Both the position numbers and the translations under genes were made by a program. The notes beneath the pieces are model-generated. The model had not been told where the DNA came from. It saw only the letters and a list, made by a program, of their open reading frames with translations, and ran no database searches. DNA of 64,000 nt, taken from Escherichia coli (GTDB taxonomy: Bacteria > Pseudomonadota > Gammaproteobacteria > Enterobacterales > Enterobacteriaceae). The stretch lies in NCBI RefSeq assembly GCF_024223415.1, contig NZ_CP100500.1. One strand, given 5' to 3'. Below are positions 1 to 60,534 of this stretch, one piece after another; the stretch's first letter is position 1; each line of letters opens with the position of its first letter.

Positions 1-794
1 TTTTCTGCCAGAACCGCGCGCTGGATATCCGGGTAATCATAACCCTTGAGATTCAACAGAATTAACGCTCCCTGCAACGGTGGCAGAGTCGGGTTGAATG
101 CGGCGTTTTCAGCGTAGCTGCCACTGAAAATACGACCGTCTTTACATTCCAGCGCGACACCGCTTGGCGACTTACTGTAAGGCATGTGCGAACGGTTTGC
201 CGCCGCAATCGCTGCCTGAGAAAGCGCATCACCCGTCAGCGCATAGCCGTGATCCTGTTCGTCCATCAGCAGCGTTTTAATCTCCAGATCTTTCGGCCCA
301 AAGGCATCTGGCAGATAGTCACGCAGCGCGTGTGCCTCGCGGCCCGGCAGATGAATACGCAGATCCAGACCGCTGTTCAGTTCATTCATAAACTGACGGC
401 AGTGACCACAAGGCGTGTAGTTAACGGTGATGGCTGCAAGCGCTTTTTCACCACTCAACCAGGCGTGGCTGATCGCGCTTTGTTCGGCATGAACGGTTTG
501 CTGCATTGTCGCACCAATAAATTCCATATTGGCACCGAAATACCAGGTTCCGCTCACACCGCGCGCAATTGCGCCAACATTAAAATTCGACAATGGCGTA
601 CGCGCACAGGCCGCCGCCAGCGGAAGTAGTGCGAATGCCAGCGCGTCTTCGTCCAGCCCCGTTGCGCTCTTCAGCGATGAGACTTGCTCCCCGGTCAACA
701 AAGCGGGGAAGTACTTGTCTGCCAGAATAGGTTCCAGTGCAGATTGCAAGTTATCCGCAAGTTGGGCAAAAGCGGTTTGAAAACGTGGATGCAT
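1..794 (-). CDS. cdd: cytidine deaminase, partial (3' end lies beyond window start)
   Basis: Reverse-strand translation begins [33 protein letters not shown]... and contains the Zn-binding [10 protein letters not shown] motif; matches E. coli Cdd from memory. Confidence 0.9.
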
Positions 795-923
795 GGCGTT
801 GCCTCATAATCATGTAATGGGATAACAGTTTACGAACCCGTTATGGCTTTATATGTGATCTGAATCTCATTAATTATGCAACGCGTGAAACATACATCAA
901 AAATGCGCGACGCATCGCAAATT

Positions 924-2050
<1,127 letters not shown>

Positions 2051-2252
2051 TTAATTCGTAAAACGTGCTACCGATCACATTAAGAAATCAGCGCTTATTT
2101 TTTCGCTCCCCGGCATTACGCAATGCGCAGCGAACTCAGGCATACATCAAGCATAGAGAGGGATTGCAGTTTGCAGCAATCCCTCTTTGCAGACCTTTAA
2201 TCCGCTGACCATAGGCGCTAACATAGCGCCTCATTTTTTTGCGGGTGATGAT

Positions 2253-3200
2253 ATGCGTGTGTTACTGGCACCGATGGAGGGAGTGCTTGACTCTCTGGTG
2301 CGTGAATTGCTGACCGAAGTTAACGACTACGATCTGTGCATCACCGAGTTTGTCCGCGTGGTGGATCAACTGCTGCCGGTAAAAGTCTTTCATCGCATTT
2401 GCCCTGAGCTACAAAACGCCAGCCGGACACCATCTGGTACGCTGGTGCGCGTGCAGTTGTTAGGTCAGTTCCCACAATGGCTGGCAGAGAACGCCGCCCG
2501 TGCGGTGGAGTTAGGTTCCTGGGGCGTGGATCTCAATTGCGGCTGCCCGTCGAAAACGGTTAACGGTAGCGGCGGCGGGGCGACGTTACTCAAAGATCCT
2601 GAACTCATCTACCAGGGTGCAAAAGCGATGCGTGAAGCTGTACCGGCGCATTTGCCCGTCAGCGTGAAAGTGCGTCTGGGCTGGGACAGCGGTGAGAAGA
2701 AATTTGAAATCGCCGATGCGGTTCAACAGGCTGGCGCTACGGAGCTGGTGGTGCATGGGCGGACGAAAGAGCAGGGTTACCGCGCGGAGCATATTGACTG
2801 GCAGGCGATTGGCGATATTCGCCAGCGGCTGAATATTCCGGTGATTGCCAACGGTGAAATCTGGGACTGGCAGAGCGCGCAACAATGCATGGCGATCAGC
2901 GGCTGCGACGCAGTGATGATTGGTCGCGGGGCGCTCAATATTCCCAACCTGAGCCGGGTGGTAAAATATAACGAACCGCGAATGCCGTGGCCGGAGGTGG
3001 TTGCTTTGCTGCAAAAATATACCCGTCTGGAAAAGCAGGGCGATACCGGGTTATATCACGTTGCGCGGATTAAACAGTGGTTGAGTTATTTGCGTAAAGA
3101 ATACGATGAAGCAACGGAATTATTTCAGCATGTTCGGGTGTTGAATAATTCCCCTGATATTGCAAGGGCTATTCAGGCAATTGATATCGAGAAACTCTAA
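2253..3200 (+). CDS. dusC: tRNA-dihydrouridine synthase C
   Basis: Track ORF 2187..3200; start taken at [13 protein letters not shown]...; Dus-family TIM-barrel motifs (LNCGCPS, VHGRT). Confidence 0.9.
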
Positions 3201-3241
3201 AAAACCATAGTGATGTTTTTTGACAATGTGTTAGCTCTTTA

Positions 3242-3502
3242 TCAATAGGCCGCACGGTTGTTTGGTGGCGTCAAAATTGCCGAGGCGTTCCCTGAAGGCC
3301 GGGGCAGCCCACATGGATGTGGGCTGAGGGCGCGTTTTACAGGGATGTTACCTCGCGCCCGACCCGGTAGCCGTAAGGGATAAGCCGAGGGCACCGCGCA
3401 GCGGCGATTTTGTTCGCCAGAGCCCGGGGGTGCAGGGGGCGGCGGCGATTGGCCGCCCCCTGCGCGCTCCTTGCGCCAGTGATTATATGAAGCAATGCAC
3501 AT
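3242..3502. repeat. GC-rich palindromic intergenic element (unclassified structured repeat)
   Basis: Very GC-rich stretch between dusC and yohP with a perfect 12-bp inverted repeat gcagggggcggc...gccgccccctgc and a second hairpin gcccacatggatgtgggc; the overlapping 86-aa Pro/Gly-rich ORF is not credible as coding. Confidence 0.4.
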
Positions 3503-3572
3503 GACAGGAGCGCAACAGGATGAGAGACTGAAATATTCTCGTTATTTTCGGACCTGATGACATTAATTAATT

Positions 3573-3656
3573 TTAAAATATCATCTTAAATACGCCAGTC
3601 ACCACCAGTAGCCCAATCAGGAAAATAATCAATACAGCCCAGAGTATAATTTTCAT
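3573..3656 (-). CDS. yohP: 27-aa small membrane protein
   Basis: Reverse-strand ORF MKIILWAVLIIFLIGLLVVTGVFKMIF; matches the K-12 small protein YohP from memory; too short for the ORF track. Confidence 0.7.
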   Translation of the reverse strand: MKIILWAVLIIFLIGLLVVTGVFKMIF

Positions 3657-3879
3657 TGGCGTTCCTTTATTTGTGAGTGCTGAATAAGTATAGGAAAAAA
3701 CGAAGCCCTTTGCCGTTATCCATAAACGATTAAGATAAATCGGAAGATATCATTCACTTAGTGTATATTTTTCTGGATATGTCGTTTTATTGCCACTGAT
3801 GTATTGCCACGCGAAACTAAAAAATATATCGCAACACACGGTAATCTCCGCGCACCTTTTCTTACCTGATTATTCCCCC

Positions 3880-5316
3880 ATGAATCGTGATTCCTTTTAT
3901 CCAGCCATCGCCTGTTTTCCGCTGTTACTGATGCTGGCCGGGTGTGCGCCTATGCATGAAACCCGCCAGGCGTTAAGCCAGCAAACGCCCGCTGCACAAG
4001 TTGACACCGCATTACCCACGGCGCTGAAAAATGGTTGGCCAGACAGCCAATGGTGGCTGGAGTATCACGATAATCAACTCACTTCCTTAATTAACAATGC
4101 ACTACAGAACGCACCGGATATGCAGGTGGCTGAACAGCGCATTCAGCTAGCTGAAGCCCAAGCGAAGGCAGTTGCCACTCAGGATGGTCCGCAGATCGAC
4201 TTTTCGGCGGATATGGAGCGGCAAAAAATGTCGGCAGAAGGCTTAATGGGGCCGTTTGCTCTGAACGATCCGGCCGCAGGTACGACCGGCCCGTGGTACA
4301 CCAACGGTACTTTTGGCTTAACGGCGGGCTGGCATCTCGATATCTGGGGAAAGAATCGGGCGGAGGTTACTGCCCGCCTGGGTACGGTTAAAGCACGGGC
4401 GGCGGAACGCGAGCAAACCCGCCAATTGCTGGCTGGCAGCGTAGCCCGCCTGTACTGGGAGTGGCAAACCCAGGCGGCGTTAAACACGGTCTTGCAGCAA
4501 ATAGAAAAAGAGCAGAACACCATTATCGCGACCGATCGCCAGCTATATCAGAACGGGATTACTTCTTCAGTTGAAGGTGTGGAAACCGATATTAATGCCA
4601 GCAAAACCCGGCAGCAGCTCAACGATGTCGCGGGGAAAATGAAAATTATTGAGGCACGGTTAAGCGCACTTACAAATAACCAGACAAAGTCATTGAAGCT
4701 TAAACCGGTCGCGTTGCCGAAAGTGGCAAGCCAGCTTCCTGATGAACTGGGGTACTCCTTACTGGCCCGGCGGGCAGATTTGCAGGCGGCGCACTGGTAC
4801 GTTGAGTCATCGCTAAGCACCATTGATGCGGCAAAAGCGGCATTTTATCCTGACATCAACCTGATGGCCTTCCTGCAACAGGATGCGTTGCACTTAAGCG
4901 ATCTGTTCCGTCATTCCGCGCAGCAAATGGGCGTTACGGCAGGCCTGACGCTACCCATTTTCGATAGTGGTCGTCTTAACGCCAATCTCGATATCGCAAA
5001 AGCCGAAAGCAACTTGTCTATCGCCAGCTACAACAAAGCGGTGGTTGAAGCGGTGAATGACGTGGCGCGGGCAGCCAGTCAGGTTCAGACACTGGCGGAG
5101 AAAAACCAGCATCAGGCGCAAATTGAGCGCGATGCCTTGCGTGTGGTAGGTCTTGCGCAGGCGCGCTTTAACGCGGGCATCATTGCTGGTTCCCGCGTCA
5201 GCGAAGCCAGAATCCCCGCGCTGCGTGAGCGGGCCAATGGCCTGTTATTGCAAGGGCAGTGGCTGGATGCCTCCATTCAACTCACTGGTGCGTTGGGCGG
5301 GGGTTACAAACGCTGA
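3880..5316 (+). CDS. mdtQ: outer membrane efflux lipoprotein (OMF family), apparently intact
   Basis: Track ORF 3790..5316; start taken at MNRDSFYPAIACFPLLLMLAGCAP (lipobox LAGC); OprM/TolC-like; uninterrupted 478-aa frame. Confidence 0.8.
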   Translation: MNRDSFYPAIACFPLLLMLAGCAPMHETRQALSQQTPAAQVDTALPTALKNGWPDSQWWLEYHDNQLTSLINNALQNAPDMQVAEQRIQLAEAQAKAVATQDGPQIDFSADMERQKMSAEGLMGPFALNDPAAGTTGPWYTNGTFGLTAGWHLDIWGKNRAEVTARLGTVKARAAEREQTRQLLAGSVARLYWEWQTQAALNTVLQQIEKEQNTIIATDRQLYQNGITSSVEGVETDINASKTRQQLNDVAGKMKIIEARLSALTNNQTKSLKLKPVALPKVASQLPDELGYSLLARRADLQAAHWYVESSLSTIDAAKAAFYPDINLMAFLQQDALHLSDLFRHSAQQMGVTAGLTLPIFDSGRLNANLDIAKAESNLSIASYNKAVVEAVNDVARAASQVQTLAEKNQHQAQIERDALRVVGLAQARFNAGIIAGSRVSEARIPALRERANGLLLQGQWLDASIQLTGALGGGYKR

Positions 5317-5368
5317 TGATATGCGCCTTCTATACTTAACGTTTATTCAGCGTTAAGTGGAGAACTCG

Positions 5369-6130
5369 ATGGCACAGGTTGCGATTATTACCGCCTCCGA
5401 TTCGGGGATCGGCAAAGAGTGCGCGTTATTACTGGCGCAGCAGGGGTTTGATATTGGTATTACCTGGAACTCAGATGAAGAAGGGGCAAAAGATACCGCG
5501 CGTGAGGTAGTTAGCCACGGCGTACGTGCGGAGATCGTGCAGCTGGATCTCGGTAAACTGCCAGAAGGTGCGCAGGCGCTGGAGAAACTCATTCAACGGC
5601 TGGGGCGTATTGATGTGCTGGTGAATAATGCGGGCGCAATGACCAAAGCGCCGTTTCTTGATATGGCTTTCGATGAGTGGCGCAAGATTTTTACCGTTGA
5701 TGTCGATGGTGCATTTTTATGCTCACAAATTGCGGCCCGCCAGATGGTGAAACAAGGGCAGGGCGGTCGCATCATCAACATTACGTCGGTACATGAACAT
5801 ACGCCGCTGCCGGATGCCAGCGCCTACACAGCCGCTAAACATGCGCTCGGTGGGTTAACCAAAGCGATGGCGCTGGAGCTGGTCAGGCATAAGATTTTGG
5901 TGAACGCAGTCGCGCCTGGGGCGATCGCCACGCCAATGAATGGCATGGATGACAGCGACGTGAAGCCCGACGCGGAGCCTTCGATTCCTCTGCGGCGTTT
6001 TGGCGCAACGCATGAGATTGCCAGCCTGGTAGCGTGGCTGTGCTCAGAGGGCGCAAATTACACCACCGGGCAGTCGTTGATAGTGGATGGCGGCTTTATG
6101 TTGGCGAATCCGCAGTTCAACCCAGAATAG
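5369..6130 (+). CDS. yohF: short-chain dehydrogenase/reductase
   Basis: MAQVAIITASDSGIGKE... Rossmann TASxxGIG motif, NNAG, YxxxK; RBS GTGGAG upstream. Confidence 0.9.
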   Translation: MAQVAIITASDSGIGKECALLLAQQGFDIGITWNSDEEGAKDTAREVVSHGVRAEIVQLDLGKLPEGAQALEKLIQRLGRIDVLVNNAGAMTKAPFLDMAFDEWRKIFTVDVDGAFLCSQIAARQMVKQGQGGRIINITSVHEHTPLPDASAYTAAKHALGGLTKAMALELVRHKILVNAVAPGAIATPMNGMDDSDVKPDAEPSIPLRRFGATHEIASLVAWLCSEGANYTTGQSLIVDGGFMLANPQFNPE

Positions 6131-6177
6131 CGCAGTGAGGTGCGTGGTTATTTCAATGGGTAAAATTTTGGTAGGCA

Positions 6178-6250
6178 TGATAAGACGCACAAGCGTCGCA
6201 TCAGGCATGGTGCACCGGATGTCGGATGCGGCGCGAACGCCTTACCCAGG
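6178..6250. repeat. REP/BIME-type palindromic repeats
   Basis: Intergenic gatgcgacgc / ggatgcggcg-type REP consensus copies between yohF and yohD. Confidence 0.55.
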
Positions 6251-6259
6251 GCAATGGTT

Positions 6260-6838
6260 TTACGCCTGATGATCCGGCTTTTTCTTCCCGCGCCGTTTCA
6301 GCCACCAGCGCACGCCTACCACCAGAACCACGACCAGAATCAACCAGACCCAGTGCTTCAAATGCTGGTCGAGAGTGTGCAACCACGGCGCAATCACCTG
6401 ACCACCAGCGTAACCGATAGTGGTAAAAATCAACGCCCAGGCAAATGCGCCGAGAATATTAAGCGGCAGAAAGATTTTCGGCGGCAGCTGGCTGGCACCA
6501 ATCAGCGTCGGGCCAATCACCCGAAAGCCATACATAAAGCGCGTACCAATGACAAACAGATACGGATGGCGTTGGATAAGTTTCTGCGCCCGCTCAATTT
6601 TATCCTGATGTTTCGAGAAACGGCGTAACAGCTTGCCGCCAAACCGCCGCCCGCACAGATAAAGCACCTGGTCGCCAATCATGCCGCCAAGCGCCACAGA
6701 AAGTACCACCAGCGGGAACTTTAATAGCCCCTGATGTGCCGCAACGCCTCCCAGCAAAGTCACGGTTTCACCTTCCGCCAGGCTACCGATCACCAGCGCG
6801 GCATAACCATATTGTGAGATGAGTGTATTGAGATCCAT
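6260..6838 (-). CDS. yohD: DedA-family inner membrane protein
   Basis: Track ORF 6260..6874; start taken at MDLNTLISQYGYAALVIGSLAEGETVTL... (192 aa). Confidence 0.85.
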   Translation of the reverse strand: MDLNTLISQYGYAALVIGSLAEGETVTLLGGVAAHQGLLKFPLVVLSVALGGMIGDQVLYLCGRRFGGKLLRRFSKHQDKIERAQKLIQRHPYLFVIGTRFMYGFRVIGPTLIGASQLPPKIFLPLNILGAFAWALIFTTIGYAGGQVIAPWLHTLDQHLKHWVWLILVVVLVVGVRWWLKRRGKKKPDHQA

Positions 6839-7007
6839 AGGCCAGTCTGTCTCCCTTTGGTTGCCTTTAAGCATACACCCTGGAAATCATTCACGCTGAA
6901 AAAGGACGTACATCAGACGGTGCAAATTACATGAGCGAACAAAAAATAATCACAAGCTGAATTATACTTGAACTGTCAGGTTCATGAACTCACAACAAGG
7001 GGGCGGT

Positions 7008-7595
7008 ATGAGCCATGTCTGGGGACTGTTTTCCCATCCCGATCGTGAAATGCAGGTGATTAATCGCGAAAACGAAACGATTTCTCACCATTACACCCAC
7101 CACGTTTTGCTGATGGCGGCGATTCCGGTGATTTGCGCCTTCATTGGCACTACACAGATTGGCTGGAATTTTGGCGATGGCACTATCCTGAAGTTATCCT
7201 GGTTTACCGGACTGGCGCTGGCTGTCCTGTTTTATGGCGTTATGCTGGCTGGGGTTGCGGTAATGGGGCGGGTCATCTGGTGGATGGCGCGTAATTATCC
7301 GCAGCGTCCGTCACTTGCGCACTGCATGGTCTTCGCGGGCTACGTTGCAACTCCGCTGTTTTTAAGCGGTCTGGTGGCGCTTTATCCACTGGTCTGGTTG
7401 TGTGCGCTGGTCGGCACGGTGGCGCTGTTTTACACCGGCTACCTGCTTTACCTTGGTATTCCGAGCTTCCTGAATATCAACAAAGAGGAAGGCCTTAGCT
7501 TCTCTAGTTCGACGCTGGCGATTGGCGTGCTGGTACTGGAAGTGCTGCTCGCCCTAACCGTTATACTATGGGGCTACGGTTATCGTTTGTTCTAG
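7008..7595 (+). CDS. yohC: inner membrane protein (Yip1-like)
   Basis: Track ORF 6984..7595; start taken at MSHVWGLFSHPDREMQ...; multi-TM. Confidence 0.85.
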   Translation: MSHVWGLFSHPDREMQVINRENETISHHYTHHVLLMAAIPVICAFIGTTQIGWNFGDGTILKLSWFTGLALAVLFYGVMLAGVAVMGRVIWWMARNYPQRPSLAHCMVFAGYVATPLFLSGLVALYPLVWLCALVGTVALFYTGYLLYLGIPSFLNINKEEGLSFSSSTLAIGVLVLEVLLALTVILWGYGYRLF

Positions 7596-7768
7596 AAAGT
7601 TCTTTGACGTTGCATTGCTGGCGTAAATGTCAGCAATGCAGCATTTCCTCACGATTCTCCTTTGACGATCGCACTTTTTGCTCGTTATGATGGCGTCGCT
7701 AGCCTCAGTAAATCCTTACTCCGGCGGTGCGCAACCCGTGCGCGTGAACCACTATCTGAATGCTCATC

Positions 7769-8701
7769 ATGCCGAAATTTCGAGTTTCTTTATTTAGCCT
7801 GGCCCTGATGCTGGCTGTGCCTTTGGCACCGCAGGCCGTTGCGAAAACGGCAGCCGCTACCACCGCTTCACAACCGGAAATTGCCTCCGGTAGCGCGATG
7901 ATTGTTGATCTGAATACCAACAAAGTGATCTATTCGAACCACCCGGATCTGGTGCGTCCGATTGCGTCTATCAGCAAATTAATGACCGCGATGGTTGTGC
8001 TGGATGCACGACTGCCGCTGGATGAAAAACTAAAAGTGGATATCAGCCAGACGCCGGAGATGAAAGGGGTCTATTCGCGCGTACGACTGAATAGCGAAAT
8101 CAGCCGTAAAGATATGCTGTTGCTGGCGCTGATGTCTTCAGAAAACCGCGCGGCGGCAAGCCTTGCGCACCATTATCCCGGTGGTTACAAAGCCTTTATT
8201 AAGGCAATGAATGCGAAAGCGAAATCGCTCGGAATGAACAACACGCGCTTTGTTGAACCTACCGGATTGTCGGTGCATAACGTTTCAACTGCCCGTGACT
8301 TAACCAAACTGCTCATTGCCAGCAAACAATATCCGTTGATCGGGCAGTTAAGTACTACCCGGGAAGATATGGCAACCTTCTCTAATCCGACGTATACGCT
8401 GCCGTTCCGCAATACTAATCATCTGGTGTATCGCGATAACTGGAATATTCAGTTAACCAAAACCGGCTTTACCAATGCGGCGGGCCATTGTCTGGTGATG
8501 CGTACGGTTATCAATAATAAACCGGTGGCGCTGGTAGTGATGGACGCGTTTGGCAAATATACCCATTTTGCCGATGCCAGCCGCCTGCGTACCTGGATTG
8601 AAACCGGTAAAGTGATGCCTGTGCCGGCAGCAGCGTTGAGCTATAAAAAACAAAAAGCCGCCCAAATGGCGGCGGCGGGGCAGACGGCACAGAACGATTA
8701 A
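7769..8701 (+). CDS. pbpG: D-alanyl-D-alanine endopeptidase (PBP7)
   Basis: [17 protein letters not shown]... signal peptide; SISKLMT (SxxK) active site motif. Confidence 0.9.
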
Positions 8702-8738
8702 GTGAATTCGGATGGCGATACTCTGCCATCCGTAATTT

Positions 8739-10454
8739 TTACTCCACTTCCTGCCAGTTTTTCCGTTTACTGGTTTTACCGATCCCCGGATTCATGCTGT
8801 TGGTCGGATCGTTCTCGCGATAGAACTTCTGCAACGTCTCCGGTGCTTTATACAAATGACCGACGTTATGCTCGGCAGGGTACTGCGCGCCGCGCTGCTG
8901 TAGCAGTTCCAGCATCTGTTCTTTTAACGCATGCACATCCACGCCTTTTTTCACTATGTAATCCTGATGGAAGACATAGCACATAAAATGGCCGTAATAG
9001 AGCTTGTGCACCAGCTGGCTGTCGATCTCCGGCGGTAAATGCTCATACCACTCGGTGTCGTTACGCCGCAGAGCGATATCCAACGCCAGAATGTCTTCGA
9101 CTTCATCGGAATGCACCGCCTGATAACGAATTGCTGCGCCCGCAGCGGCGAAACGGTGTAAAAACGCTTTGCTGCCTTCCTCCGGCGTACAGACAAAGAA
9201 ATCGCCTTCGGCCTGTTTGAAATAATCCACCAGCCACGATTTGGCTTCGCCCACGCCATCGCCCGCCATTTTTAACAGCAGATGATGCTCGTATTTATCG
9301 CGCCAGTTTTTCATGCGCGGCGGTAAATGGCTGGGGAACAGGTGACCGAATTTTTGCATCGCACGGTCAGTAAAATGCGGACGGAAGAATTTCACTTTCT
9401 CCAGCATCGCATCGGTGCGTCCCTTGAGATTAAAGAAGAACGGCATCTTGTCGGTGCCTAACTTATCAATCATCAGGAAGGTGTCTTTGCCGTATTTTTC
9501 CGCAATATCGTAGATATCCCGGTGCATATATTCCCCGGCAACCGGCAGATTTTCGAAGTTAGCCAGAATATGACGGCGGATTTCGGTCAGCACTTCCGGC
9601 TGGTTGGTGCCGATATAAAACACCTGCTGATTTTTTTCCGCTTCGAAGGTATCAAGACGTACTGCAAAGACCGCCAGCTTCCCGGCGCAACCAGAAGATT
9701 CAAATAACCGATCAGGATCGGCGTTATAACGTGCGGGCGTGTCGGCTTCAATATCACGAACGCGGTGGACATAGTCATAATCGTGGGCGTGACGACCATC
9801 GTGACGCACATCGTCATCTTTGATGCGATCATCATCCAGCTTGCTAAGGATCTGCTCCGGCGTTTCGCCCAGATCAATCCCCAGATGGTTCACCAGCGTC
9901 AGTTTGCCGTCTTCATTTATACGCGCGAATAACGACATTTCGGTATACGCCGGGCCACGTTGCACCAGCGAGCCGCCGGAGTTGTTACAAATACCGCCGA
10001 TGACCGATGCGCCTATACACGATGATCCAATCACTGAGTGCGGTTCGCGTCCCAGCGGTTTGAGGGCTTTTTCCAGCGAATAGAGCGTGGTGCCCGGATA
10101 GGCCAGCACCTGTTCGCCCTTGCCAAGAACGTGCAGCTTGTCGAGACGCAGGGTGCTGATGATCACGATATCGCGATCATAGCCGTTACCGTTTGGCGTC
10201 GATCCTTCGGTCAGGCCTGTATTGGCAGCCTGCATCAGAATAATTTTGTCGGCGGTGACGCAGGCTTTCAGCACCCGCCACAATTCCAGTAGTGAGCCAG
10301 GGAAAACGACAGCCAGCGCGTCGCCCTGACCAGAACGGAAGCCCTTGCGATAGCGGGCCGTTTTTGCGGGATCGGTGAGCAGGTGTGAATGACCGACCAG
10401 ACGGGCAAGTTCATTCAAAAAGGCTTTATTATCAGTTGTTGTCATGGAAGACAT
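8739..10454 (-). CDS. dld: FAD-dependent D-lactate dehydrogenase
   Basis: Track ORF 8739..10487; start taken at MSSMTTTDNKAFLNELARLVG... (571 aa); matches Dld from memory. Confidence 0.9.
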   Translation of the reverse strand: MSSMTTTDNKAFLNELARLVGHSHLLTDPAKTARYRKGFRSGQGDALAVVFPGSLLELWRVLKACVTADKIILMQAANTGLTEGSTPNGNGYDRDIVIISTLRLDKLHVLGKGEQVLAYPGTTLYSLEKALKPLGREPHSVIGSSCIGASVIGGICNNSGGSLVQRGPAYTEMSLFARINEDGKLTLVNHLGIDLGETPEQILSKLDDDRIKDDDVRHDGRHAHDYDYVHRVRDIEADTPARYNADPDRLFESSGCAGKLAVFAVRLDTFEAEKNQQVFYIGTNQPEVLTEIRRHILANFENLPVAGEYMHRDIYDIAEKYGKDTFLMIDKLGTDKMPFFFNLKGRTDAMLEKVKFFRPHFTDRAMQKFGHLFPSHLPPRMKNWRDKYEHHLLLKMAGDGVGEAKSWLVDYFKQAEGDFFVCTPEEGSKAFLHRFAAAGAAIRYQAVHSDEVEDILALDIALRRNDTEWYEHLPPEIDSQLVHKLYYGHFMCYVFHQDYIVKKGVDVHALKEQMLELLQQRGAQYPAEHNVGHLYKAPETLQKFYRENDPTNSMNPGIGKTSKRKNWQEVE

Positions 10455-10649
10455 TTTCCACTCCTTGTGGTGGCGAAAAAATATCACAAACTAGAATAGC
10501 GCCTTGTATGACAATTCAGCGAGTGAATATTTTGAAAATTCAGACAATAAACTGAGCATTCTTTTTCTCTCTCCATCATGCTTATGGCAAACTACGGTTT
10601 TTGCACCATTTTCGCTGCCTCGTCGGGCAACAGAGGAAGAAAAATCCAT

Positions 10650-12947
10650 ATGAAATGGCTATGTTCAGTAGGAATCGCGGTGAGTCTGGCCCTGCAGCCA
10701 GCACTGGCGGATGATTTATTCGGCAACCATCCATTAACGCCCGAAGCGCGGGATGCGTTCGTCACCGAACTGCTTAAGAAAATGACAGTTGATGAGAAAA
10801 TTGGTCAGCTGCGCTTAATCAGCGTCGGCCCGGATAACCCGAAAGAGGCGATCCGCGAGATGATCAAAGACGGTCAGGTTGGGGCGATTTTCAACACCGT
10901 AACCCGTCAGGATATCCGCGCCATGCAGGATCAGGTGATGGAATTAAGCCGCCTGAAAATTCCTCTTTTCTTTGCTTACGACGTGCTGCACGGTCAGCGC
11001 ACGGTGTTCCCGATTAGCCTCGGTCTGGCCTCGTCTTTTAACCTCGATGCAGTGAAAACGGTCGGACGTGTCTCTGCTTATGAAGCGGCAGATGATGGCC
11101 TGAATATGACCTGGGCACCGATGGTCGATGTCTCGCGCGATCCGCGCTGGGGACGTGCTTCCGAAGGTTTTGGCGAAGATACGTATCTCACCTCAACAAT
11201 GGGTAAAACCATGGTGGAAGCGATGCAGGGTAAAAGCCCGGCAGATCGCTACTCGGTGATGACCAGCGTCAAACACTTTGCCGCATACGGCGCGGTAGAA
11301 GGCGGTAAAGAGTACAACACCGTCGATATGAGTCCGCAGCGCCTGTTTAATGATTATATGCCGCCGTACAAAGCGGGGCTGGACGCAGGCAGCGGCGCGG
11401 TGATGGTGGCGCTGAACTCGCTGAACGGCACGCCAGCCACCTCCGATTCCTGGCTGCTGAAAGATGTTCTGCGCGACCAGTGGGGCTTTAAAGGCATCAC
11501 CGTTTCCGATCACGGTGCAATCAAAGAGCTGATTAAACATGGCACGGCGGCAGACCCGGAAGATGCGGTGCGCGTGGCGCTGAAATCCGGAATCAACATG
11601 AGCATGAGCGACGAGTACTACTCGAAGTATCTGCCTGGGTTGATTAAATCCGGCAAAGTGACGATGGCAGAGCTGGACGATGCTGCCCGCCATGTACTGA
11701 ACGTTAAATATGATATGGGGTTGTTTAACGACCCATACAGCCATTTGGGGCCGAAAGAGTCTGACCCGGTGGATACCAATGCCGAAAGCCGCCTGCACCG
11801 TAAAGAAGCGCGTGAAGTGGCGCGCGAAAGCTTGGTGTTGCTGAAAAACCGTCTCGAAACGTTACCGCTGAAAAAATCGGCCACCATTGCGGTGGTTGGG
11901 CCACTGGCGGACAGTAAACGTGACGTGATGGGCAGCTGGTCCGCAGCCGGTGTTGCCGATCAATCCGTGACCGTACTGACCGGGATTAAAAATGCCGTCG
12001 GTGAAAACGGTAAAGTGCTGTATGCCAAAGGGGCGAACGTTACCAGTGACAAAGGCATTATCGATTTCCTGAATCAGTATGAAGAAGCGGTCAAAGTCGA
12101 TCCGCGTTCGCCGCAAGAGATGATTGATGAAGCGGTGCAGACGGCGAAACAATCTGATGTGGTGGTGGCTGTAGTCGGTGAAGCACAGGGGATGGCGCAC
12201 GAAGCCTCCAGCCGGACCGATATCACTATTCCGCAAAGCCAACGTGACTTGATTGCGGCGCTGAAAGCCACCGGTAAACCGCTGGTGCTGGTGCTTATGA
12301 ACGGGCGTCCGCTGGCGCTGGTGAAAGAAGATCAGCAGGCTGATGCGATTCTGGAAACCTGGTTTGCGGGGACTGAAGGCGGTAATGCAATTGCCGATGT
12401 GTTGTTTGGCGATTACAACCCGTCCGGCAAGCTGCCGATGTCCTTCCCGCGTTCTGTCGGGCAGATCCCGGTGTACTACAGCCATCTGAACACCGGTCGT
12501 CCGTATAATGCCGACAAGCCGAACAAATACACTTCGCGTTATTTTGATGAAGCTAACGGGGCGCTTTATCCGTTCGGCTATGGTCTGAGCTATACCACTT
12601 TCACCGTCTCTGATGTGAAACTTTCTGCGCCGACCATGAAGCGTGACGGCAAAGTGACGGCCAGCGTGCAGGTGACGAACACCGGTAAGCGCGAGGGTGC
12701 CACGGTAGTGCAGATGTACTTGCAGGATGTGACGGCTTCCATGAGTCGCCCTGTGAAACAGCTGAAAGGCTTTGAGAAAATCACCCTGAAGCCGGGCGAA
12801 ACTCAGACCGTCAGCTTCCCGATTGATATTGAGGCGCTGAAGTTCTGGAATCAACAGATGAAATATGACGCCGAGCCTGGCAAGTTCAATGTCTTTATCG
12901 GCACTGATTCCGCACGCGTTAAGAAAGGCGAGTTTGAGTTGCTGTAA
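10650..12947 (+). CDS. bglX: periplasmic beta-glucosidase (GH3)
   Basis: Start MKWLCSVGIAVSLALQPALA (signal peptide) with GAGGAAG RBS; GH3 domain (765 aa). Confidence 0.9.
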   Translation: MKWLCSVGIAVSLALQPALADDLFGNHPLTPEARDAFVTELLKKMTVDEKIGQLRLISVGPDNPKEAIREMIKDGQVGAIFNTVTRQDIRAMQDQVMELSRLKIPLFFAYDVLHGQRTVFPISLGLASSFNLDAVKTVGRVSAYEAADDGLNMTWAPMVDVSRDPRWGRASEGFGEDTYLTSTMGKTMVEAMQGKSPADRYSVMTSVKHFAAYGAVEGGKEYNTVDMSPQRLFNDYMPPYKAGLDAGSGAVMVALNSLNGTPATSDSWLLKDVLRDQWGFKGITVSDHGAIKELIKHGTAADPEDAVRVALKSGINMSMSDEYYSKYLPGLIKSGKVTMAELDDAARHVLNVKYDMGLFNDPYSHLGPKESDPVDTNAESRLHRKEAREVARESLVLLKNRLETLPLKKSATIAVVGPLADSKRDVMGSWSAAGVADQSVTVLTGIKNAVGENGKVLYAKGANVTSDKGIIDFLNQYEEAVKVDPRSPQEMIDEAVQTAKQSDVVVAVVGEAQGMAHEASSRTDITIPQSQRDLIAALKATGKPLVLVLMNGRPLALVKEDQQADAILETWFAGTEGGNAIADVLFGDYNPSGKLPMSFPRSVGQIPVYYSHLNTGRPYNADKPNKYTSRYFDEANGALYPFGYGLSYTTFTVSDVKLSAPTMKRDGKVTASVQVTNTGKREGATVVQMYLQDVTASMSRPVKQLKGFEKITLKPGETQTVSFPIDIEALKFWNQQMKYDAEPGKFNVFIGTDSARVKKGEFELL

Positions 12948-12956
12948 TGCTTTTGT

Positions 12957-12980
12957 AAGGGCGCGACGTTTGCGCCCTTT
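12957..12980 (+). terminator. rho-independent terminator after bglX
   Basis: Hairpin gggcgcGACGTTtgcgccc followed by TTT directly after the bglX stop. Confidence 0.5.
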
Positions 12981-13022
12981 GCCTGATGTTCATATCTTAA
13001 CTTGCTGAATTTTCGCCCTTTG

Positions 13023-13060
13023 TAGGCCGGATAAGGCGCTCGCGCCGCATCCGGCAGGAA
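13023..13060. repeat. REP element
   Basis: gccggataaggcgctcgcgccgcatccggc matches the classic REP palindrome. Confidence 0.6.
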
Positions 13061-13198
13061 ACGCCGGACCGAATATGCCTCTTAAGTATTTATCTGATTC
13101 TGCAACTGAATCCTTCCGCTCAAGCTAACCCCGCCATTATCAACTATGCTTTTCTCTTAATTCGCTGAAAACAACAGTAAAAGAATGAGGAAAGCATC

Positions 13199-14116
13199 AT
13201 GCCACTCTTAAAGCTCTGGGCAGGTTCACTGGTTATGTTGGCAGCCGTGAGCCTGCCGCTACAGGCGGCTTCCCCCGTTAAAGTCGGTTCAAAAATCGAT
13301 ACCGAAGGTGCGCTACTCGGCAATATCATTTTGCAGGTGCTGGAAAGCCACGGCGTACCGACGGTGAATAAAGTGCAACTCGGAACGACTCCTGTGGTGC
13401 GCGGGGCGATTACTTCCGGTGAACTGGATATCTATCCGGAATATACCGGCAATGGCGCTTTCTTCTTTAAAGATGAAAACGATGCAGCGTGGAAAAACGC
13501 GCAGCAAGGTTACGAGAAAGTCAAAAAGCTCGATTCGGAGCACAACAAGTTAATCTGGCTGACGCCCGCGCCTGCAAATAACACCTGGACTATCGCCGTG
13601 CGTCAGGATGTGGCAGAGAAAAATAAACTCACTTCGCTTGCCGACCTGAGTCGTTATCTGCAAGAGGGCGGCACCTTCAAACTGGCAGCCTCGGCAGAGT
13701 TTATCGAACGCGCCGATGCGTTACCCGCGTTTGAAAAAGCCTATGGCTTTAAGCTCGGTCAGGATCAGTTGCTGTCACTGGCTGGTGGCGACACGGCGGT
13801 GACGATCAAAGCCGCTGCCCAGCAAACCTCTGGCGTTAATGCTGCAATGGCTTACGGCACTGACGGCCCGGTAGCGGCGCTGGGGCTGCAAACCTTAAGC
13901 GATCCGCAAGGTGTGCAACCTATCTACGCGCCTGCACCAGTGGTGCGTGAGTCGGTGTTGAGGGAGTATCCGCAAATGGCACAGTGGCTACAGCCAGTCT
14001 TCGCCAGCCTCGATGCAAAAACATTGCAGCAACTGAATGCCAGCATTGCTGTGGAAGGACTGGATGCCAAAAAAGTGGCTGCCGACTACCTGAAACAAAA
14101 AGGGTGGACGAAGTAA
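13199..14116 (+). CDS. osmF: glycine betaine ABC transporter periplasmic binding protein
   Basis: 305-aa ORF with signal peptide MPLLKLWAGSLVMLAAVSLPLQA; K-12 yehZ position. Confidence 0.9.
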   Translation: MPLLKLWAGSLVMLAAVSLPLQAASPVKVGSKIDTEGALLGNIILQVLESHGVPTVNKVQLGTTPVVRGAITSGELDIYPEYTGNGAFFFKDENDAAWKNAQQGYEKVKKLDSEHNKLIWLTPAPANNTWTIAVRQDVAEKNKLTSLADLSRYLQEGGTFKLAASAEFIERADALPAFEKAYGFKLGQDQLLSLAGGDTAVTIKAAAQQTSGVNAAMAYGTDGPVAALGLQTLSDPQGVQPIYAPAPVVRESVLREYPQMAQWLQPVFASLDAKTLQQLNASIAVEGLDAKKVAADYLKQKGWTK

Positions 14117-14122
14117 TTTCCC

Positions 14123-15280
14123 GTGACTTATTTCCGTATTAATCCTGTTCTGGCGCTGCTGCTGTTGCTGACGGCAATCGCAGCGGCGCTGCCGTTTATC
14201 AGTTACGCGCCTAATCGTTTAGTTTCGGGTGAGGGGCGTCATCTCTGGCAGCTGTGGCCGCAAACGATCTGGATGCTGGTGGGCGTTGGTTGCGCCTGGC
14301 TGACGGCCTGTTTTATTCCCGGTAAAAAAGGCAGCATTTGTGCACTCATTCTGGCGCAATTCGTCTTCGTATTGCTGGTGTGGGGAGCTGGAAAGGCGGC
14401 GACCCAACTGGCGCAAAATGGCAGTGCGCTGGCGCGTACCAGCCTCGGCAGTGGTTTCTGGCTGGCTGCGGCGCTGGCATTGCTGGCCTGTAGCGATGCC
14501 ATCCGCCGAATCTCCACGCATCCGCTGTGGCGCTGGTTGTTGCATATGCAGATTGCCATTATTCCGCTGTGGTTGCTGTACTCCGGCACGCTTAACGATC
14601 TCTCACTAATGAAAGAATACGCCAACCGTCAGGATGTGTTTGACGACGCGCTGGCACAACATCTGACGTTGCTGTTTGGTGCGGTGCTGCCTGCGTTAGT
14701 GATTGGTGTGCCGTTGGGCATCTGGTGCTACTTTTCCACTGCTCGGCAGGGGGCAATTTTTTCTCTGCTCAATGTCATTCAGACCGTGCCTTCGGTGGCG
14801 CTCTTTGGCCTGTTGATTGCGCCGCTTGCCGCGCTGGTGACGGCCTTTCCGTGGCTGGGGAAGCTCGGCATAGCAGGAACCGGAATGACACCCGCACTGA
14901 TTGCGCTGGTGCTCTATGCCTTGCTGCCGCTGGTGCGCGGCGTGGTAGTCGGCTTGAACCAGATCCCGCGCGATGTGCTGGAGAGCGCCAGAGCGATGGG
15001 CATGAGCGGGGCGCGGCGATTCCTGCATGTTCAGTTACCACTGGCGTTACCGGTATTTCTGCGCAGCCTGCGGGTGGTGATGGTGCAAACTGTAGGTATG
15101 GCGGTGATTGCGGCGTTAATCGGCGCAGGCGGTTTTGGTGCGCTGGTTTTCCAGGGGCTGCTAAGCAGCGCCATTGATTTAGTGTTGCTGGGGGTGATCC
15201 CGGTAATTGTTCTGGCGGTGCTTACCGACGCGCTGTTCGATTTGCTTATCGCACTGCTGAAGGTGAAACGTAATGATTGA
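14123..15280 (+). CDS. yehY: ABC transporter permease
   Basis: 385-aa multi-TM permease; overlaps the yehX start. Confidence 0.9.
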
Positions 15281-16199
15281 ATTTAGCCATGTCAGCAAAC
15301 TGTTCGGCGCACAAAAAGCCGTTAACGATCTCAATCTCAATTTTCAGGAAGGGAGTTTTTCGGTGCTGATTGGCACATCTGGCTCCGGCAAATCCACCAC
15401 CCTGAAAATGATTAACCGCCTGGTGGAGCATGACAGCGGAGTGATCCGCTTTGCCGGAGAAGAAATTCGCTCGCTGCCAGTACTGGAGTTGCGCCGCCGG
15501 ATGGGCTATGCCATTCAATCTATTGGCCTGTTCCCCCACTGGAGCGTGGCGCAAAACATCGCTACCGTGCCGCAATTACAAAAATGGTCGCGGGCGCGGA
15601 TTGACGATCGTATCGACGAATTAATGGCGCTACTGGGGCTGGAGTCAAATTTGCGTGAGCGTTATCCGCATCAGCTTTCCGGTGGTCAGCAGCAACGTGT
15701 GGGAGTGGCGCGTGCACTGGCTGCCGATCCGCAAGTCTTACTAATGGATGAACCTTTTGGCGCACTGGACCCGGTAACGCGCGGCGCGTTGCAACAAGAG
15801 ATGACGCGCATTCACCGTTTGCTGGGGCGTACCATTGTGCTGGTCACTCATGATATTGATGAGGCGCTACGGCTGGCAGAACATCTGGTATTGATGGATC
15901 ACGGTGAAGTAGTGCAGCAGGGCAATCCGCTGACGATGCTGACTCGTCCGGCGAATGATTTTGTCCGCCAGTTTTTTGGACGTAGTGAACTGGGTGTGCG
16001 CCTGCTTTCGTTACGTAGTGTGGCGGATTACGTGCGTCGCGAAGAACGAGCAGATGGTGAGGCACTGGCAGAAGAGATGACGCTACGCGATGCGCTCTCT
16101 CTGTTTGTTGCGCGGGGATGCGAGGTGCTGCCGGTGGTGAACATGCAGGGCCAGCCTTGCGGCACGCTGCATTTTCAGGATCTGCTGGTGGAGGCGTAA
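15273..16199 (+). CDS. yehX: ABC transporter ATP-binding protein
   Basis: Walker [13 protein letters not shown] signature LSGGQQQRV, Walker B LLMDEP. Confidence 0.92.
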
Positions 16200-16203
16200 G
16201 CGT

Positions 16204-16935
16204 ATGAAGATGTTGCGCGATCCGCTGTTCTGGCTCATTGCTCTGTTTGTGGCGCTGATTTTCTGGCTGCCTTACAGCCAGCCGCTGTTTGCTGCCTTGT
16301 TCCCACAACTGCCACGACCCGTTTATCAGCAAGAAAGTTTTGCAGCTCTGGCACTGGCTCATTTCTGGCTGGTGGGAATTTCGAGTTTGTTTGCGGTGAT
16401 CATTGGCACTGGTGCCGGAATTGCTGTCACTCGCCCGTGGGGCGCGGAATTTCGCCCACTGGTGGAAACTATTGCCGCCGTTGGACAGACTTTTCCGCCC
16501 GTCGCAGTGCTGGCGATCGCCGTTCCGGTGATCGGCTTTGGTCTGCAACCAGCGATTATCGCCTTGATCCTTTACGGTGTGCTGCCCGTCCTGCAGGCGA
16601 CACTTGCCGGGCTGGGAGCGATTGATGCCAGCGTGACAGAAGTTGCGAAAGGTATGGGAATGAGTCGTGGTCAGCGACTGCGTAAGGTCGAGCTACCGCT
16701 GGCGGCTCCGGTGATTCTGGCGGGCGTGCGAACTTCGGTGATTATCAACATTGGTACGGCGACGATCGCCTCAACGGTAGGGGCCAGCACGCTGGGTACG
16801 CCCATCATCATCGGGCTTAGCGGATTTAATACCGCGTATGTGATCCAGGGGGCGTTACTGGTGGCACTGGCGGCGATCATCGCAGACCGCCTGTTTGAAA
16901 GGCTGGTGCAGGCGCTTAGCCAGCACGCAAAATAA
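16204..16935 (+). CDS. yehW: ABC transporter permease
   Basis: 243-aa multi-TM permease completing the osmF-yehYXW operon. Confidence 0.9.
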
Positions 16936-17023
16936 AGGTATAACCTGCGAGCATGACGCCACCAATTCCGCCTAACGCCATAAACAGGAACAGGGCGATG
17001 ACCCCAATTTTAGCTATGCGCAT
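16916..17023 (-). CDS. yohO: 35-aa small membrane protein
   Basis: Reverse [38 protein letters not shown]; matches K-12 YohO from memory; overlaps the yehW 3' end. Confidence 0.65.
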
Positions 17024-17082
17024 AATGCACTCCTTATGTTAACGAAAGGATTGTACAGTAAAGCGCATTTGTTAACGAATCA

Positions 17083-17766
17083 TTAAATGCCGAGTGGGAA
17101 AATATCATGGCCTTGTTCTTGCCAACTGGTGAGTTGCTGCTGTTGGGCGGAGGTTCGATTTTCACCGCACCACACCAGCAATGTACGGCCTTCGAATAGT
17201 TCAGGGCGTAGTTGATTGAGCGAGTGGGCGAGGACATCAATGCGCCATCCTTGTTGACTGGCAATCCAGCCCTCCAGCCACAGACGGGTGGTATCCTGAA
17301 TATTCCAGCCAACCACCAGCGCATCTTTACCCTGTTTTTTACGTGCCGAAGCCAGACAAATGGCGATGTAGTTGATCAGTACGCCGTCGAGGATCGCCAG
17401 CAGCGCCTGGAGAGTCGGTTGTTGGCACTGAAGCCGTCGGCGCAGAGGAATAAACAGATGTGTGGTGAGTGTCTGGGCGGGGTAATCCTGACCGCGCTCT
17501 TTGATCCACGTTCGCAGGCTATGTAGATTGCCGCTTTGCAGGTAAGTCAGTAATGTTTCTTGCTGATCGCGCCAGCCGTTCTGCACATCAACATTTTCAT
17601 TACTGAGCAGCATTTTAACTTTGCTGACCTGCACGCCGTTGTCGATCCAGCGTTTGATCTCGCGGATCCGGTCAATATCGGCATCGTTGAACAGCCGATG
17701 ACCGCCGTCTGTCCGTTGCGGTTTCAGCAATCCGTAACGCCTCTGCCACGCGCGTAACGTGACAGG
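17083..17766 (-). pseudogene. mlrA: mlrA (yehV) 3' portion, separated from its 5' end by prophage insertion
   Basis: Reverse translation ...LKPQRTDGGHRLFNDADIDRIREIKRWIDNGVQVSKVKMLL... is the MerR-family curli regulator MlrA lacking its first ~22 codons, which lie at 63009..63074. Confidence 0.88.
17747..17766. repeat. attL core (direct repeat with 63007..63026)
   Basis: cacgcgcgtaacgtgacagg is identical at both prophage ends and lies inside the mlrA reading frame (encodes PVTLRAW). Confidence 0.8.
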
Positions 17767-17804
17767 GATTAAGGGTAAACTAACTGATTTTACAAGTTTT
17801 TATT

Positions 17805-59788: not shown

Positions 59789-60534
59789 AACTGATAAAAA
59801 AACCCCTCTGAAAATTCTGTCAGAGGGGGGCAAGGATCTATATTTATTATGCAGTAATGCTTTCACTCCGGTAATTAATTTCCGTGATTAACTGCTTTCG
59901 ATCAATAAAGGAATTGCAAAAAGGTGATCTTGTTCACGACATCGTGGATGATAATATGCCTGATGTCTGAATCCGGAAACAGTGATCTGGCGGGTTTCAT
60001 GTGAAGTTGACGGATAAAAAAATCCGCACGACCAGACAGACGTGCGGTTTACGAAATTCGTAACAAGAGGCTTTTCTACGGATCACGTGGTGCGTGCCAC
60101 GTGAAATTTTTGTAGCGCAAAATGTGTAATGTGTAAATACAAGGAAGGAAAAAGTTAAATCGGTGGAAGTCCATGCCTGCCACATGTATGTCTGCATTCC
60201 TCGTTTTGAACAGAATTCTCACCAGACATCGTGAATTTCTCATTCAATCATCAGAGATATTAACCAGGATTTTTATTGTTTTGTGATATCAGCAGTGCAG
60301 GTATACAGACATTAAAGTAATCAGGTTTATTATAACCACCTTTACAAAGTTGTATGTGTTTATAATTTAAGGATTTTAATCCCAGTCGTTTTCTGCTGCT
60401 TAAATTGAGGGCGCATATTATACACAATAATATTCCTGGCATTATTAAATTAATAAAAGAGGATTCTTATCACTGTATTTTTGCTCCGCACTACCGTTCT
60501 GGCTGGTGAAGTAATAATACAGGAGAATAACAGA

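What the first reader, a model, noticed from the sequence alone, without database searches (positions are those of the whole stretch)
3880..5316. mdtQ appears intact here
The OMF-family efflux lipoprotein gene reads as an uninterrupted 478-aa frame with a lipoprotein signal. From memory, the K-12 allele of this gene is annotated as a pseudogene, so this strain may retain a functional outer membrane channel.
Basis: partly seen in the sequence, partly recalled or inferred. Interest (0 to 1): 0.3.

Follow-up and report, generated by a model that had tools for sequence, protein, structure and literature searches.

The report
Intact wild-type mdtQ efflux channel gene
This E. coli strain carries the normal, uninterrupted version of the outer-membrane efflux channel gene mdtQ; only the K-12 laboratory lineage has it broken by a one-base deletion, so the finding is correct but ordinary and already documented.

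Summary
Window 3880-5316 (+) is an uninterrupted 478-codon ORF with a lipoprotein signal (lipobox LAGC, Cys22). It matches the NCBIfam MdtQ equivalog model end to end (1024 bits, cutoff 650). The fact recalled from memory is also right: K-12 MG1655 mdtQ (b2139) is annotated as a pseudogene. K-12 differs from the window allele by three positions: a 1-bp deletion in the A5 run at 4027-4031 (stop after 69 aa) and two synonymous substitutions. The intact state is the species norm, not a peculiarity of this strain. The locus is present in 5423 of 5426 complete E. coli genomes. The K-12 A4 allele occurs in 355 genomes, and all 60 that were listed are K-12 laboratory strains. Ten of ten sampled non-K-12 alleles are intact, with dN/dS of about 0.08. 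Orthologues of 478-479 aa occur in E. albertii, Salmonella and Citrobacter, and Salmonella keeps the same synteny. [quoted passage not shown] The gene is an orphan: no pump gene lies next to it. Its closest non-orthologous relatives sit in FUSC/AaeAB-type or MFS/EmrAB-type operons, never RND, which hints at the type of partner. Low interest; already known.

The parts
3880..5316 (+). mdtQ (yohG) coding sequence, 478 aa plus stop; intact outer membrane factor (OMF) lipoprotein gene
   Evidence: ORF and translation. NF008524 MdtQ at 1024.4 bits, 1-478/478. Pfam OEP x2. Protein identical to ATCC 8739 WP_001078139.1.
3880..3945 (+). Lipoprotein signal peptide: residues 1-22, lipobox LAGC with Cys22 (TGT at 3943-3945); residue +2 is Ala
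   Evidence: Read directly from the translation. By the established +2 rule, the absence of Asp at +2 predicts Lol-dependent sorting to the outer membrane; this is an inference.
4027..4031 (+). A5 homopolymer (codons K50 AAA and N51 AAT). K-12 has A4 here, the frameshift that makes b2139 a pseudogene
   Evidence: Pairwise alignment with NC_000913.3 2227323-2228758. The A4 80-mer is exact in 355 genomes, and all 60 listed are K-12 laboratory strains.
4161..4161 (+). Synonymous difference from K-12 (A here, G in K-12; third position of codon 94)
5304..5304 (+). Synonymous difference from K-12 (T here, G in K-12; third position of codon 475)
3573..3656 (-). yohP, a small membrane protein gene and the divergent upstream neighbour of mdtQ (context, not part of mdtQ)
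   Evidence: Coordinates transferred from the ATCC 8739 annotation at 99.9% identity, offset -301. The same neighbour is present in Salmonella.
5369..6130 (+). yohF, an SDR oxidoreductase gene 52 nt downstream on the same strand (context; no efflux partner is encoded nearby)
   Evidence: Annotation transfer and ORF list. The same neighbour is present in Salmonella and in the 60%-identical relative P0121.

Best explanation
Window 3880-5316 is the ordinary, functional wild-type allele of mdtQ (formerly yohG). It is an orphan gene for a NodT-type outer-membrane-factor lipoprotein. SHOWN: the frame is intact and full length. It carries a lipobox signal. It is the syntenic orthologue of K-12 b2139 and differs from it only by K-12's 1-bp deletion in an A5 run plus two synonymous changes. 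The frameshift is confined to the K-12 laboratory lineage. Intact alleles across E. coli phylogroups evolve under strong purifying selection. INFERRED from family knowledge: after signal peptidase II cleavage and acylation at Cys22, the protein is sorted to the outer membrane. There it trimerises into a TolC/OprM-like channel (a 12-strand beta-barrel plus an alpha-helical periplasmic tunnel) that serves as the exit duct of a tripartite efflux pump, docking with a periplasmic adaptor and an inner-membrane transporter encoded elsewhere in the genome. INFERRED from the contexts of its relatives: the partner is more likely an AaeA/EmrA-type adaptor with a FUSC (AaeB/MdtO-type) or MFS transporter than an RND pump. 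Because K-12 lacks MdtQ, K-12-based efflux genetics cannot reveal this partner.
For: Intact ORF and signal peptide. MdtQ equivalog at 1024 bits over 1-478/478, and OMF subfamily above its cutoff. Two OEP repeats. End-to-end alignment to the solved OMF channels VceC (1e-39), OprM, CmeC, SilC and CusC. K-12 pseudogene annotation and exact lesion. Locus present in 5423/5426 genomes. Window-type 81-mer exact in 3046 genomes. K-12 A4 80-mer exact in 355 genomes, all 60 listed being K-12 laboratory strains; every other listed hit spans 81 nt. Ten of ten sampled non-K-12 alleles intact, mean dN/dS 0.078. Orthologues of 478-479 aa in E. albertii, Salmonella and Citrobacter. Conserved orphan synteny in Salmonella. 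Closest non-orthologous relatives (35-42% identity) lie in YtcA / AaeA-like adaptor / FUSC / OMF operons or in an MFS / OMF / EmrA-like operon, and none lies next to RND genes. [quoted passage not shown]
Against: There is no direct evidence of expression. The region upstream of the ATG has no obvious Shine-Dalgarno sequence. The promoter scan found no more sites than in shuffled sequence: 2 found, 2.1 expected. No partner pump is encoded nearby, so the efflux role is inferred by homology only. The published null-mutant phenotype (slightly raised sensitivity to puromycin, acriflavine and tetraphenylarsonium; Sulavik 2001, as cited) could not be checked because the paper is not held. If it was measured in a K-12 background, it would concern an already frameshifted gene. 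Independent truncations in some Salmonella Typhi and Paratyphi A isolates (PMC9241588) show that the gene is dispensable in some niches. The partner inference rests on only seven context look-ups of paralogous clades.
Confidence: 0.88

Rival explanations
1. The frame is intact but the gene is cryptic or silent: an open but effectively unexpressed relic, so the intact-versus-pseudogene difference has no phenotypic consequence.
For: No recognisable Shine-Dalgarno sequence before the ATG. Promoter-like sites are no more frequent than in shuffles. The review states that the mdtQ promoter has not been experimentally confirmed and the function is not elucidated. K-12 grows well without the gene. Truncations recur in some Salmonella isolates.
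Against: A dN/dS of about 0.08 across phylogroups, with dS up to about 0.1, is not expected for an unexpressed relic. Length and synteny are conserved across four genera. All sampled natural alleles are intact.
Confidence: 0.08
2. MdtQ functions as an alternative exit duct for RND pumps (a TolC substitute), rather than for FUSC- or MFS-type pumps.
For: It belongs to the same OMF superfamily as OprM, CusC and AdeK, which serve RND pumps. It is named a 'multidrug resistance' protein in annotation.
Against: Its closest solved relative is VceC, from the MFS-type VceCAB pump, at 1e-39 against 1e-23 or weaker for RND-linked OMFs. Its best non-self family is MdtP at 356 bits. All informative contexts of its nearest relatives are FUSC or MFS with AaeA/EmrA-like adaptors, and none is RND.
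Confidence: 0.12
3. The K-12 'pseudogene' is a sequencing or annotation artefact, or K-12 shows the ancestral state and the window allele is a secondary repair.
For: Homopolymer length errors are common in some sequencing technologies.
Against: The A4 allele is reproduced in 355 independently assembled K-12-lineage genomes. The A5 state is found in all other E. coli sampled and is implied by the full-length 478-479 aa orthologues in E. albertii, Salmonella and Citrobacter. Downstream of the lesion, K-12 still encodes exactly the same residues, which fits a very recent loss.
Confidence: 0.01

Closest known systems
MdtQ (YohG) of E. coli, e.g. ATCC 8739 WP_001078139.1 and O157:H7 Q8X659
   Same: Identical protein to ATCC 8739 (0 differences). 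1-9 substitutions relative to other phylogroups. Same length, lipobox and dusC-yohP-mdtQ-yohF synteny.
   Different: Nothing of note; this is the same gene.
K-12 MG1655 mdtQ pseudogene (b2139; originally split as yohG/yohH)
   Same: Same locus and synteny. 1434 of 1437 positions are identical, and the encoded residues downstream of the lesion are identical.
   Different: K-12 has A4 instead of A5 at window 4027-4031, so translation ends after 69 aa. The window allele is intact.
MdtP (YjcP), the OMF of the E. coli ytcA-mdtNOP operon
   Same: Best-scoring non-self NCBIfam family (356 bits). NodT-type lipoprotein OMF. The nearest non-orthologous relatives of MdtQ sit in the same YtcA / adaptor / FUSC / OMF operon type.
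   Different: The score is below the MdtP equivalog cutoff (597), so this is a paralogue. MdtQ is encoded alone, without an adaptor or transporter gene.
VceC of Vibrio cholerae (PDB 1YC9), the OMF of the MFS-type VceCAB pump
   Same: Closest solved structure by sequence (E = 1e-39). Aligned over residues 51-477, including the WP..WW N-terminal motif and the C-terminal ALGGG motif.
   Different: Distant paralogue in another genus. vceC is encoded in an operon with its pump.
TolC, OprM, CusC (canonical OMF channels)
   Different: Low sequence identity: 12% to TolC according to the review. TolC is not a lipoprotein. The partners of those channels are known, and MdtQ's is not.

Membership tests
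MdtQ equivalog (NCBIfam NF008524) | Whole-protein score at or above the curated cutoff (650 bits), with full-length model coverage | tested here: met
   1024.4 bits, protein 1-478 aligned to model 1-478/478
MdtQ equivalog (NCBIfam NF008524) | Orthologous chromosomal position (dusC-yohP-mdtQ-yohF-yohD) | tested here: met
   Collinear with K-12 2219658-2232637. Same neighbours in ATCC 8739, GF60 and Salmonella.
NodT-type outer membrane factor lipoproteins (TIGR01845; Pfam OEP PF02321) | Subfamily HMM above cutoff, and two tandem OEP repeats | tested here: met
   TIGR01845 at 274 bits (cutoff 210.05). PF02321 at 106.6 bits with 2 stretches.
NodT-type outer membrane factor lipoproteins (TIGR01845; Pfam OEP PF02321) | N-terminal lipoprotein signal with a lipobox cysteine | tested here: met
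   MNRDSFYPAIACFPLLLMLAG|C: lipobox LAGC with Cys22, and Ala at +2 (translation). Judged by the motif rule, not by a dedicated predictor.
NodT-type outer membrane factor lipoproteins (TIGR01845; Pfam OEP PF02321) | Trimeric channel-tunnel fold (beta-barrel plus alpha-helical tunnel) | not tested
NodT-type outer membrane factor lipoproteins (TIGR01845; Pfam OEP PF02321) | Acylation, outer-membrane localisation and channel activity | not testable with these tools
   Requires biochemistry.
Tripartite efflux system (OMF + periplasmic adaptor + inner-membrane transporter) | Adaptor and transporter genes encoded with the OMF gene | tested here: not met
   The neighbours are dusC, yohP, yohF, yohD, yohC and pbpG, with no adaptor or pump gene within the collinear 17.7 kb. 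The same orphan arrangement is seen in Salmonella. This does not exclude a partner encoded elsewhere, as for TolC.
K-12-type mdtQ pseudogene | A4 instead of A5 at gene nt 148-152, giving a frameshift and a stop after codon 69 | tested here: not met
   The window has A5 (4027-4031) and an open 478-codon frame.

The most novel reading that the evidence does not exclude
Intact MdtQ is the missing outer-membrane exit duct of a FUSC-type (AaeAB-like) or EmrAB-like pump in natural E. coli. That tripartite system would have escaped decades of efflux genetics because the reference K-12 lineage carries a dead allele. Wild strains such as this one would then have an efflux capacity, for example for aromatic acids or hydrophobic cations, that K-12 lacks.
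Probability: 0.15. Interest if true: 0.45.

Novelty: already known. Interest (0 to 1): 0.1.

Why it matters
It matters mainly as a caution. K-12 is atypical at this locus, so conclusions about E. coli outer-membrane channels drawn from K-12 (four OMFs, of which only TolC, CusC and MdtP can be functional there) do not transfer automatically to natural isolates, which keep mdtQ under purifying selection. The context analysis gives a concrete and testable hint: look for FUSC/AaeAB-type or MFS/EmrAB-type partners in a strain with an intact allele. As a genome-scan finding, however, this is the expected wild-type state of a core gene, and it is already noted in the literature.

Tried and rejected
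1. The upstream TTG start at 3790 (508 aa) was rejected. The MdtQ model and all PGAP annotations begin at the ATG at 3880, and the lipoprotein signal sits at that N-terminus.
2. A sequencing error in K-12 was rejected, because the allele is reproduced in 355 genomes.
3. Phase variation or recoding at the A run was considered. A4/A5 is too short for efficient slippage, there is no X XXY YYZ heptamer, and A4 is seen only in the K-12 lineage. It was rejected by inference, without a direct test.
4. Reading Sulavik et al. 2001 (PMC90435) to learn the strain background of the yohG null phenotype failed, because the paper is not held.
5. The Chem Rev tripartite-pump review does not mention MdtQ, YohG or MdtP in the 300,000 characters that are held.
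6. The first look-up of encoding contigs attempts failed because the server did not answer; the Salmonella look-up (P0033) later succeeded, and the Citrobacter look-up (P0101) was not repeated.
7. The search for homologous proteins returned only close orthologues in its top 120, so distant relatives were taken from the 50%-clustered search.
8. The contexts of P0121 and P0126 were on contigs too short to be informative beyond a yohF-like gene (P0121) and a TetR gene (P0126).
9. No structure prediction was run. It was judged unnecessary given the end-to-end alignments to solved OMFs and the published AlphaFold comparison.

Full report
OBSERVATION. Window 3880-5316 (+) is an uninterrupted ORF that starts at ATG and ends at TGA: 1437 nt, 478 aa. 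The mechanical ORF list extends the frame to an upstream TTG at 3790. However, the curated MdtQ model aligns residues 1-478 to model positions 1-478, and PGAP annotates the 1437-nt form in every intact genome inspected. The N-terminus MNRDSFYPAIACFPLLLMLAGCAPM carries a classical lipoprotein signal with lipobox LAGC, Cys22 (TGT at 3943-3945) and Ala at +2. [quoted passage not shown] It scores 274 bits against the NodT-type OMF subfamily TIGR01845 (cutoff 210), and it has two Pfam OEP repeats. It aligns essentially end to end with solved OMF channels: VceC 1YC9 residues 19-438 of 442 (E = 1e-39) and OprM residues 37-451 of 474, through the C-terminal ALGGG motif. It is therefore not truncated relative to functional homologues.

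THE K-12 COMPARISON. In NC_000913.3, mdtQ (b2139) is annotated as a pseudogene spanning 2227323-2228758, which is 1436 bp. A global alignment shows only three differences from the window allele. First, K-12 lacks one A of the A5 run at window 4027-4031 (codons K50 and N51), so its frame reads K50-MVGQ... and stops after 69 aa. Second and third, there are third-position substitutions at 4161 and 5304. Downstream of the lesion, K-12's shifted frame still encodes exactly the same residues as the window, which indicates a very recent loss.

HOW UNUSUAL IS AN INTACT ALLELE? It is not unusual.
- The 1.8-kb region is present in 5423 of 5426 complete E. coli genomes at 95% identity or more.
- An 81-nt probe centred on the A run is matched exactly in 3046 genomes.
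- The corresponding K-12 80-mer is matched exactly in only 355 genomes. All 60 of those that were listed are K-12 laboratory strains or derivatives, including MG1655, C600, J53, DH5alpha, DH1, NCM3722, AG100 and RR1.
- Every other listed hit spans 81 nt in its record, which is the A5 state.
- Two further frameshifted alleles that I fetched (ATCC BAA-196 and T142A) are identical to K-12's.
- Ten of ten non-K-12 alleles from diverse backgrounds are intact at 478 aa: the window, ATCC 8739, GF60, Nissle 1917, O157:H7, E2865, SCU-116, Ecol_732, MS15236 and YZMc3-1.
- The window protein is identical to that of ATCC 8739. Pairwise Nei-Gojobori dN/dS is 0.035-0.10 in the 11 listed comparisons that have measurable divergence (the window and ATCC 8739 alleles differ by one synonymous site only, giving 0), and the ratio of mean dN to mean dS over all 45 pairs is 0.078, with dS up to about 0.1. 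That is strong purifying selection.
- Orthologues of 478-479 aa at 80-94% identity occur in E. albertii, Salmonella and Citrobacter. Salmonella keeps the dusC-yohP-mdtQ-yohF-yohD-yohC-pbpG-dld-bglX synteny.
[quoted passage not shown] Another paper refers to 'the mdtQ pseudogene' next to yohP in K-12 (PMC12719787).
The finding is therefore correct but already known.

WHAT IT IS AND HOW IT PROBABLY WORKS. What is shown is an intact, conserved and selectively maintained gene for a NodT-type OMF lipoprotein. The rest is inferred from established knowledge of the OMF family. The protein would be cleaved by signal peptidase II and acylated at Cys22, then sorted by Lol to the outer membrane (no Asp at +2). 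It would trimerise into a TolC/OprM-like channel-tunnel that serves as the exit duct of a tripartite pump. The gene is an orphan: no adaptor or transporter gene lies in the 17.7 kb that is collinear with K-12, nor in Salmonella.

To get a hint of the partner type, I examined the gene neighbourhoods of the closest non-orthologous relatives, which have 35-42% identity.
- P0127, P0128 and P0129 lie in YtcA / AaeA-like adaptor / FUSC / OMF operons.
- P0125 and P0130 are immediately preceded by a FUSC-family gene on short contigs.
- P0131 lies between an MFS transporter and an EmrA-like adaptor.
- None is next to RND genes.
- The 60%-identical P0121 is followed by a yohF-like SDR gene, which is the orthologous context.
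This agrees with two other results: MdtP (from ytcA-mdtNOP) is the best non-self family at 356 bits, and VceC (from the MFS-type VceCAB pump) is the closest solved structure. The most likely partner is therefore a FUSC/AaeB-type or MFS/EmrB-type transporter with an AaeA/EmrA-type adaptor encoded elsewhere. This is an inference from seven context look-ups, not a demonstration.

CAVEATS.
- There is no evidence of expression. No clear Shine-Dalgarno sequence precedes the ATG, and promoter-like sites are no more frequent than in shuffled sequence.
- The cited null-mutant phenotype (slightly raised sensitivity to puromycin, acriflavine and tetraphenylarsonium; Sulavik 2001) could not be checked, because the paper is not held. 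If it was obtained in K-12, it concerns an already dead allele.
- Independent truncations in some S. Typhi and Paratyphi A isolates show that the gene is dispensable in some niches (PMC9241588).

SURROUNDINGS. The window is collinear with K-12 for positions 1-17772 at 99.4-99.7% identity. It then carries about 45.2 kb that this K-12 region lacks, and it rejoins K-12 at 63007. The insert is a lambdoid prophage integrated in the 5' end of mlrA (yehV).
- A 20-bp att core, CACGCGCGTAACGTGACAGG, lies at 17747-17766 and at 63007-63026.
- A tyrosine integrase lies at 17805-19091 (-).
- The same junction is present in 408 of 5426 genomes.
- The prophage is mosaic relative to known phages: the best hit reaches 93.6% identity over only 33% of the 24.3-kb stretch queried (window 17700-42000).
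- No stx gene is annotated in the part of the closest genome's counterpart that was inspected, which runs from the integrase to the large terminase gene.
- Its cargo includes a porin gene, three tRNA genes and a gene for a protein with a YadA-type anchor.
These features are unrelated to mdtQ and are listed as observations made in passing.

VERDICT. However, the allele is simply the wild-type state of a core gene, and K-12's frameshift is a documented peculiarity of that lineage. Novelty: already known. Interest: low (0.1). The only forward-looking element is the hint about partner type, together with the reminder that K-12-based efflux genetics is blind to MdtQ.

Noticed in passing
window 17747-63026: A lambdoid prophage of about 45 kb is integrated in the 5' end of mlrA (yehV), flanked by a 20-bp exact att core (CACGCGCGTAACGTGACAGG at 17747-17766 and 63007-63026). 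The integrase is at 17805-19091 (-). This K-12 region has no counterpart to the insert; the same junction is present in 408 of 5426 complete genomes. The prophage is mosaic: the best phage hit reaches 93.6% identity over only 33% of the 24.3-kb stretch queried (window 17700-42000). No stx gene is annotated in the part of the closest genome's counterpart that was inspected (integrase to large terminase).
   Followed up: partly
window 17083-17790 (-) and 63027-63075 (-): The prophage splits mlrA. The first 16 or so codons (MALYTIGEVALLCDIN, the start of the MerR-type HTH) are separated from the rest by 45 kb. The curli and biofilm regulator MlrA is therefore probably inactive or altered, as reported for prophage insertions at this site in O157:H7 (that report is from my own knowledge and was not checked). 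PGAP still calls a 228-aa 'MlrA' in GF60.
   Followed up: partly
window 32075-33178 (-): A prophage-borne general porin gene (Pfam Porin_1, 425 bits; 366 aa) lies just upstream of the tRNA cluster and the lysis genes. In the GF60 counterpart, the matching porin gene lies between the Q antiterminator gene and the tRNA and lysis genes.
   Followed up: partly
window 33777-34009 (+): A cluster of three prophage tRNA genes: Met (CAT), Arg (TCT) and Thr (TGT). The related GF60 prophage has a different pair, Ile and Lys, at the equivalent place.
   Followed up: no
window 60481-61644 (+): A 387-aa protein with a C-terminal YadA-like membrane anchor (a trimeric autotransporter adhesin, possibly Eib-like) is encoded near the right end of the prophage, after the tail-fibre genes. 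It is followed by a small protein with a Sigma70_r4_2 / HTH domain at 61705-62160.
   Followed up: no
window 57384-59198 (+): A prophage tail-fibre protein has an N-terminal phage_tail_N domain and five stretches of collagen triple-helix repeats.
   Followed up: no
window 7684-7764 (+): An Rfam Peptidase-S11 RNA motif (RF03039; 72.8 bits, gathering score 34.8) lies in the 5' leader of pbpG.
   Followed up: no
window ~12982-13022: There is an indel of about 41 bp relative to K-12 in the bglX-osmF intergenic region, flanked by a short direct repeat (GCGCCCTTTG).
   Followed up: no
L007 (E. coli Nissle 1917) 1670-1801: In Nissle 1917, the neighbouring gene yohF is annotated as a pseudogene (internal stop) while mdtQ is intact. 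This is the opposite pattern to K-12.
   Followed up: no
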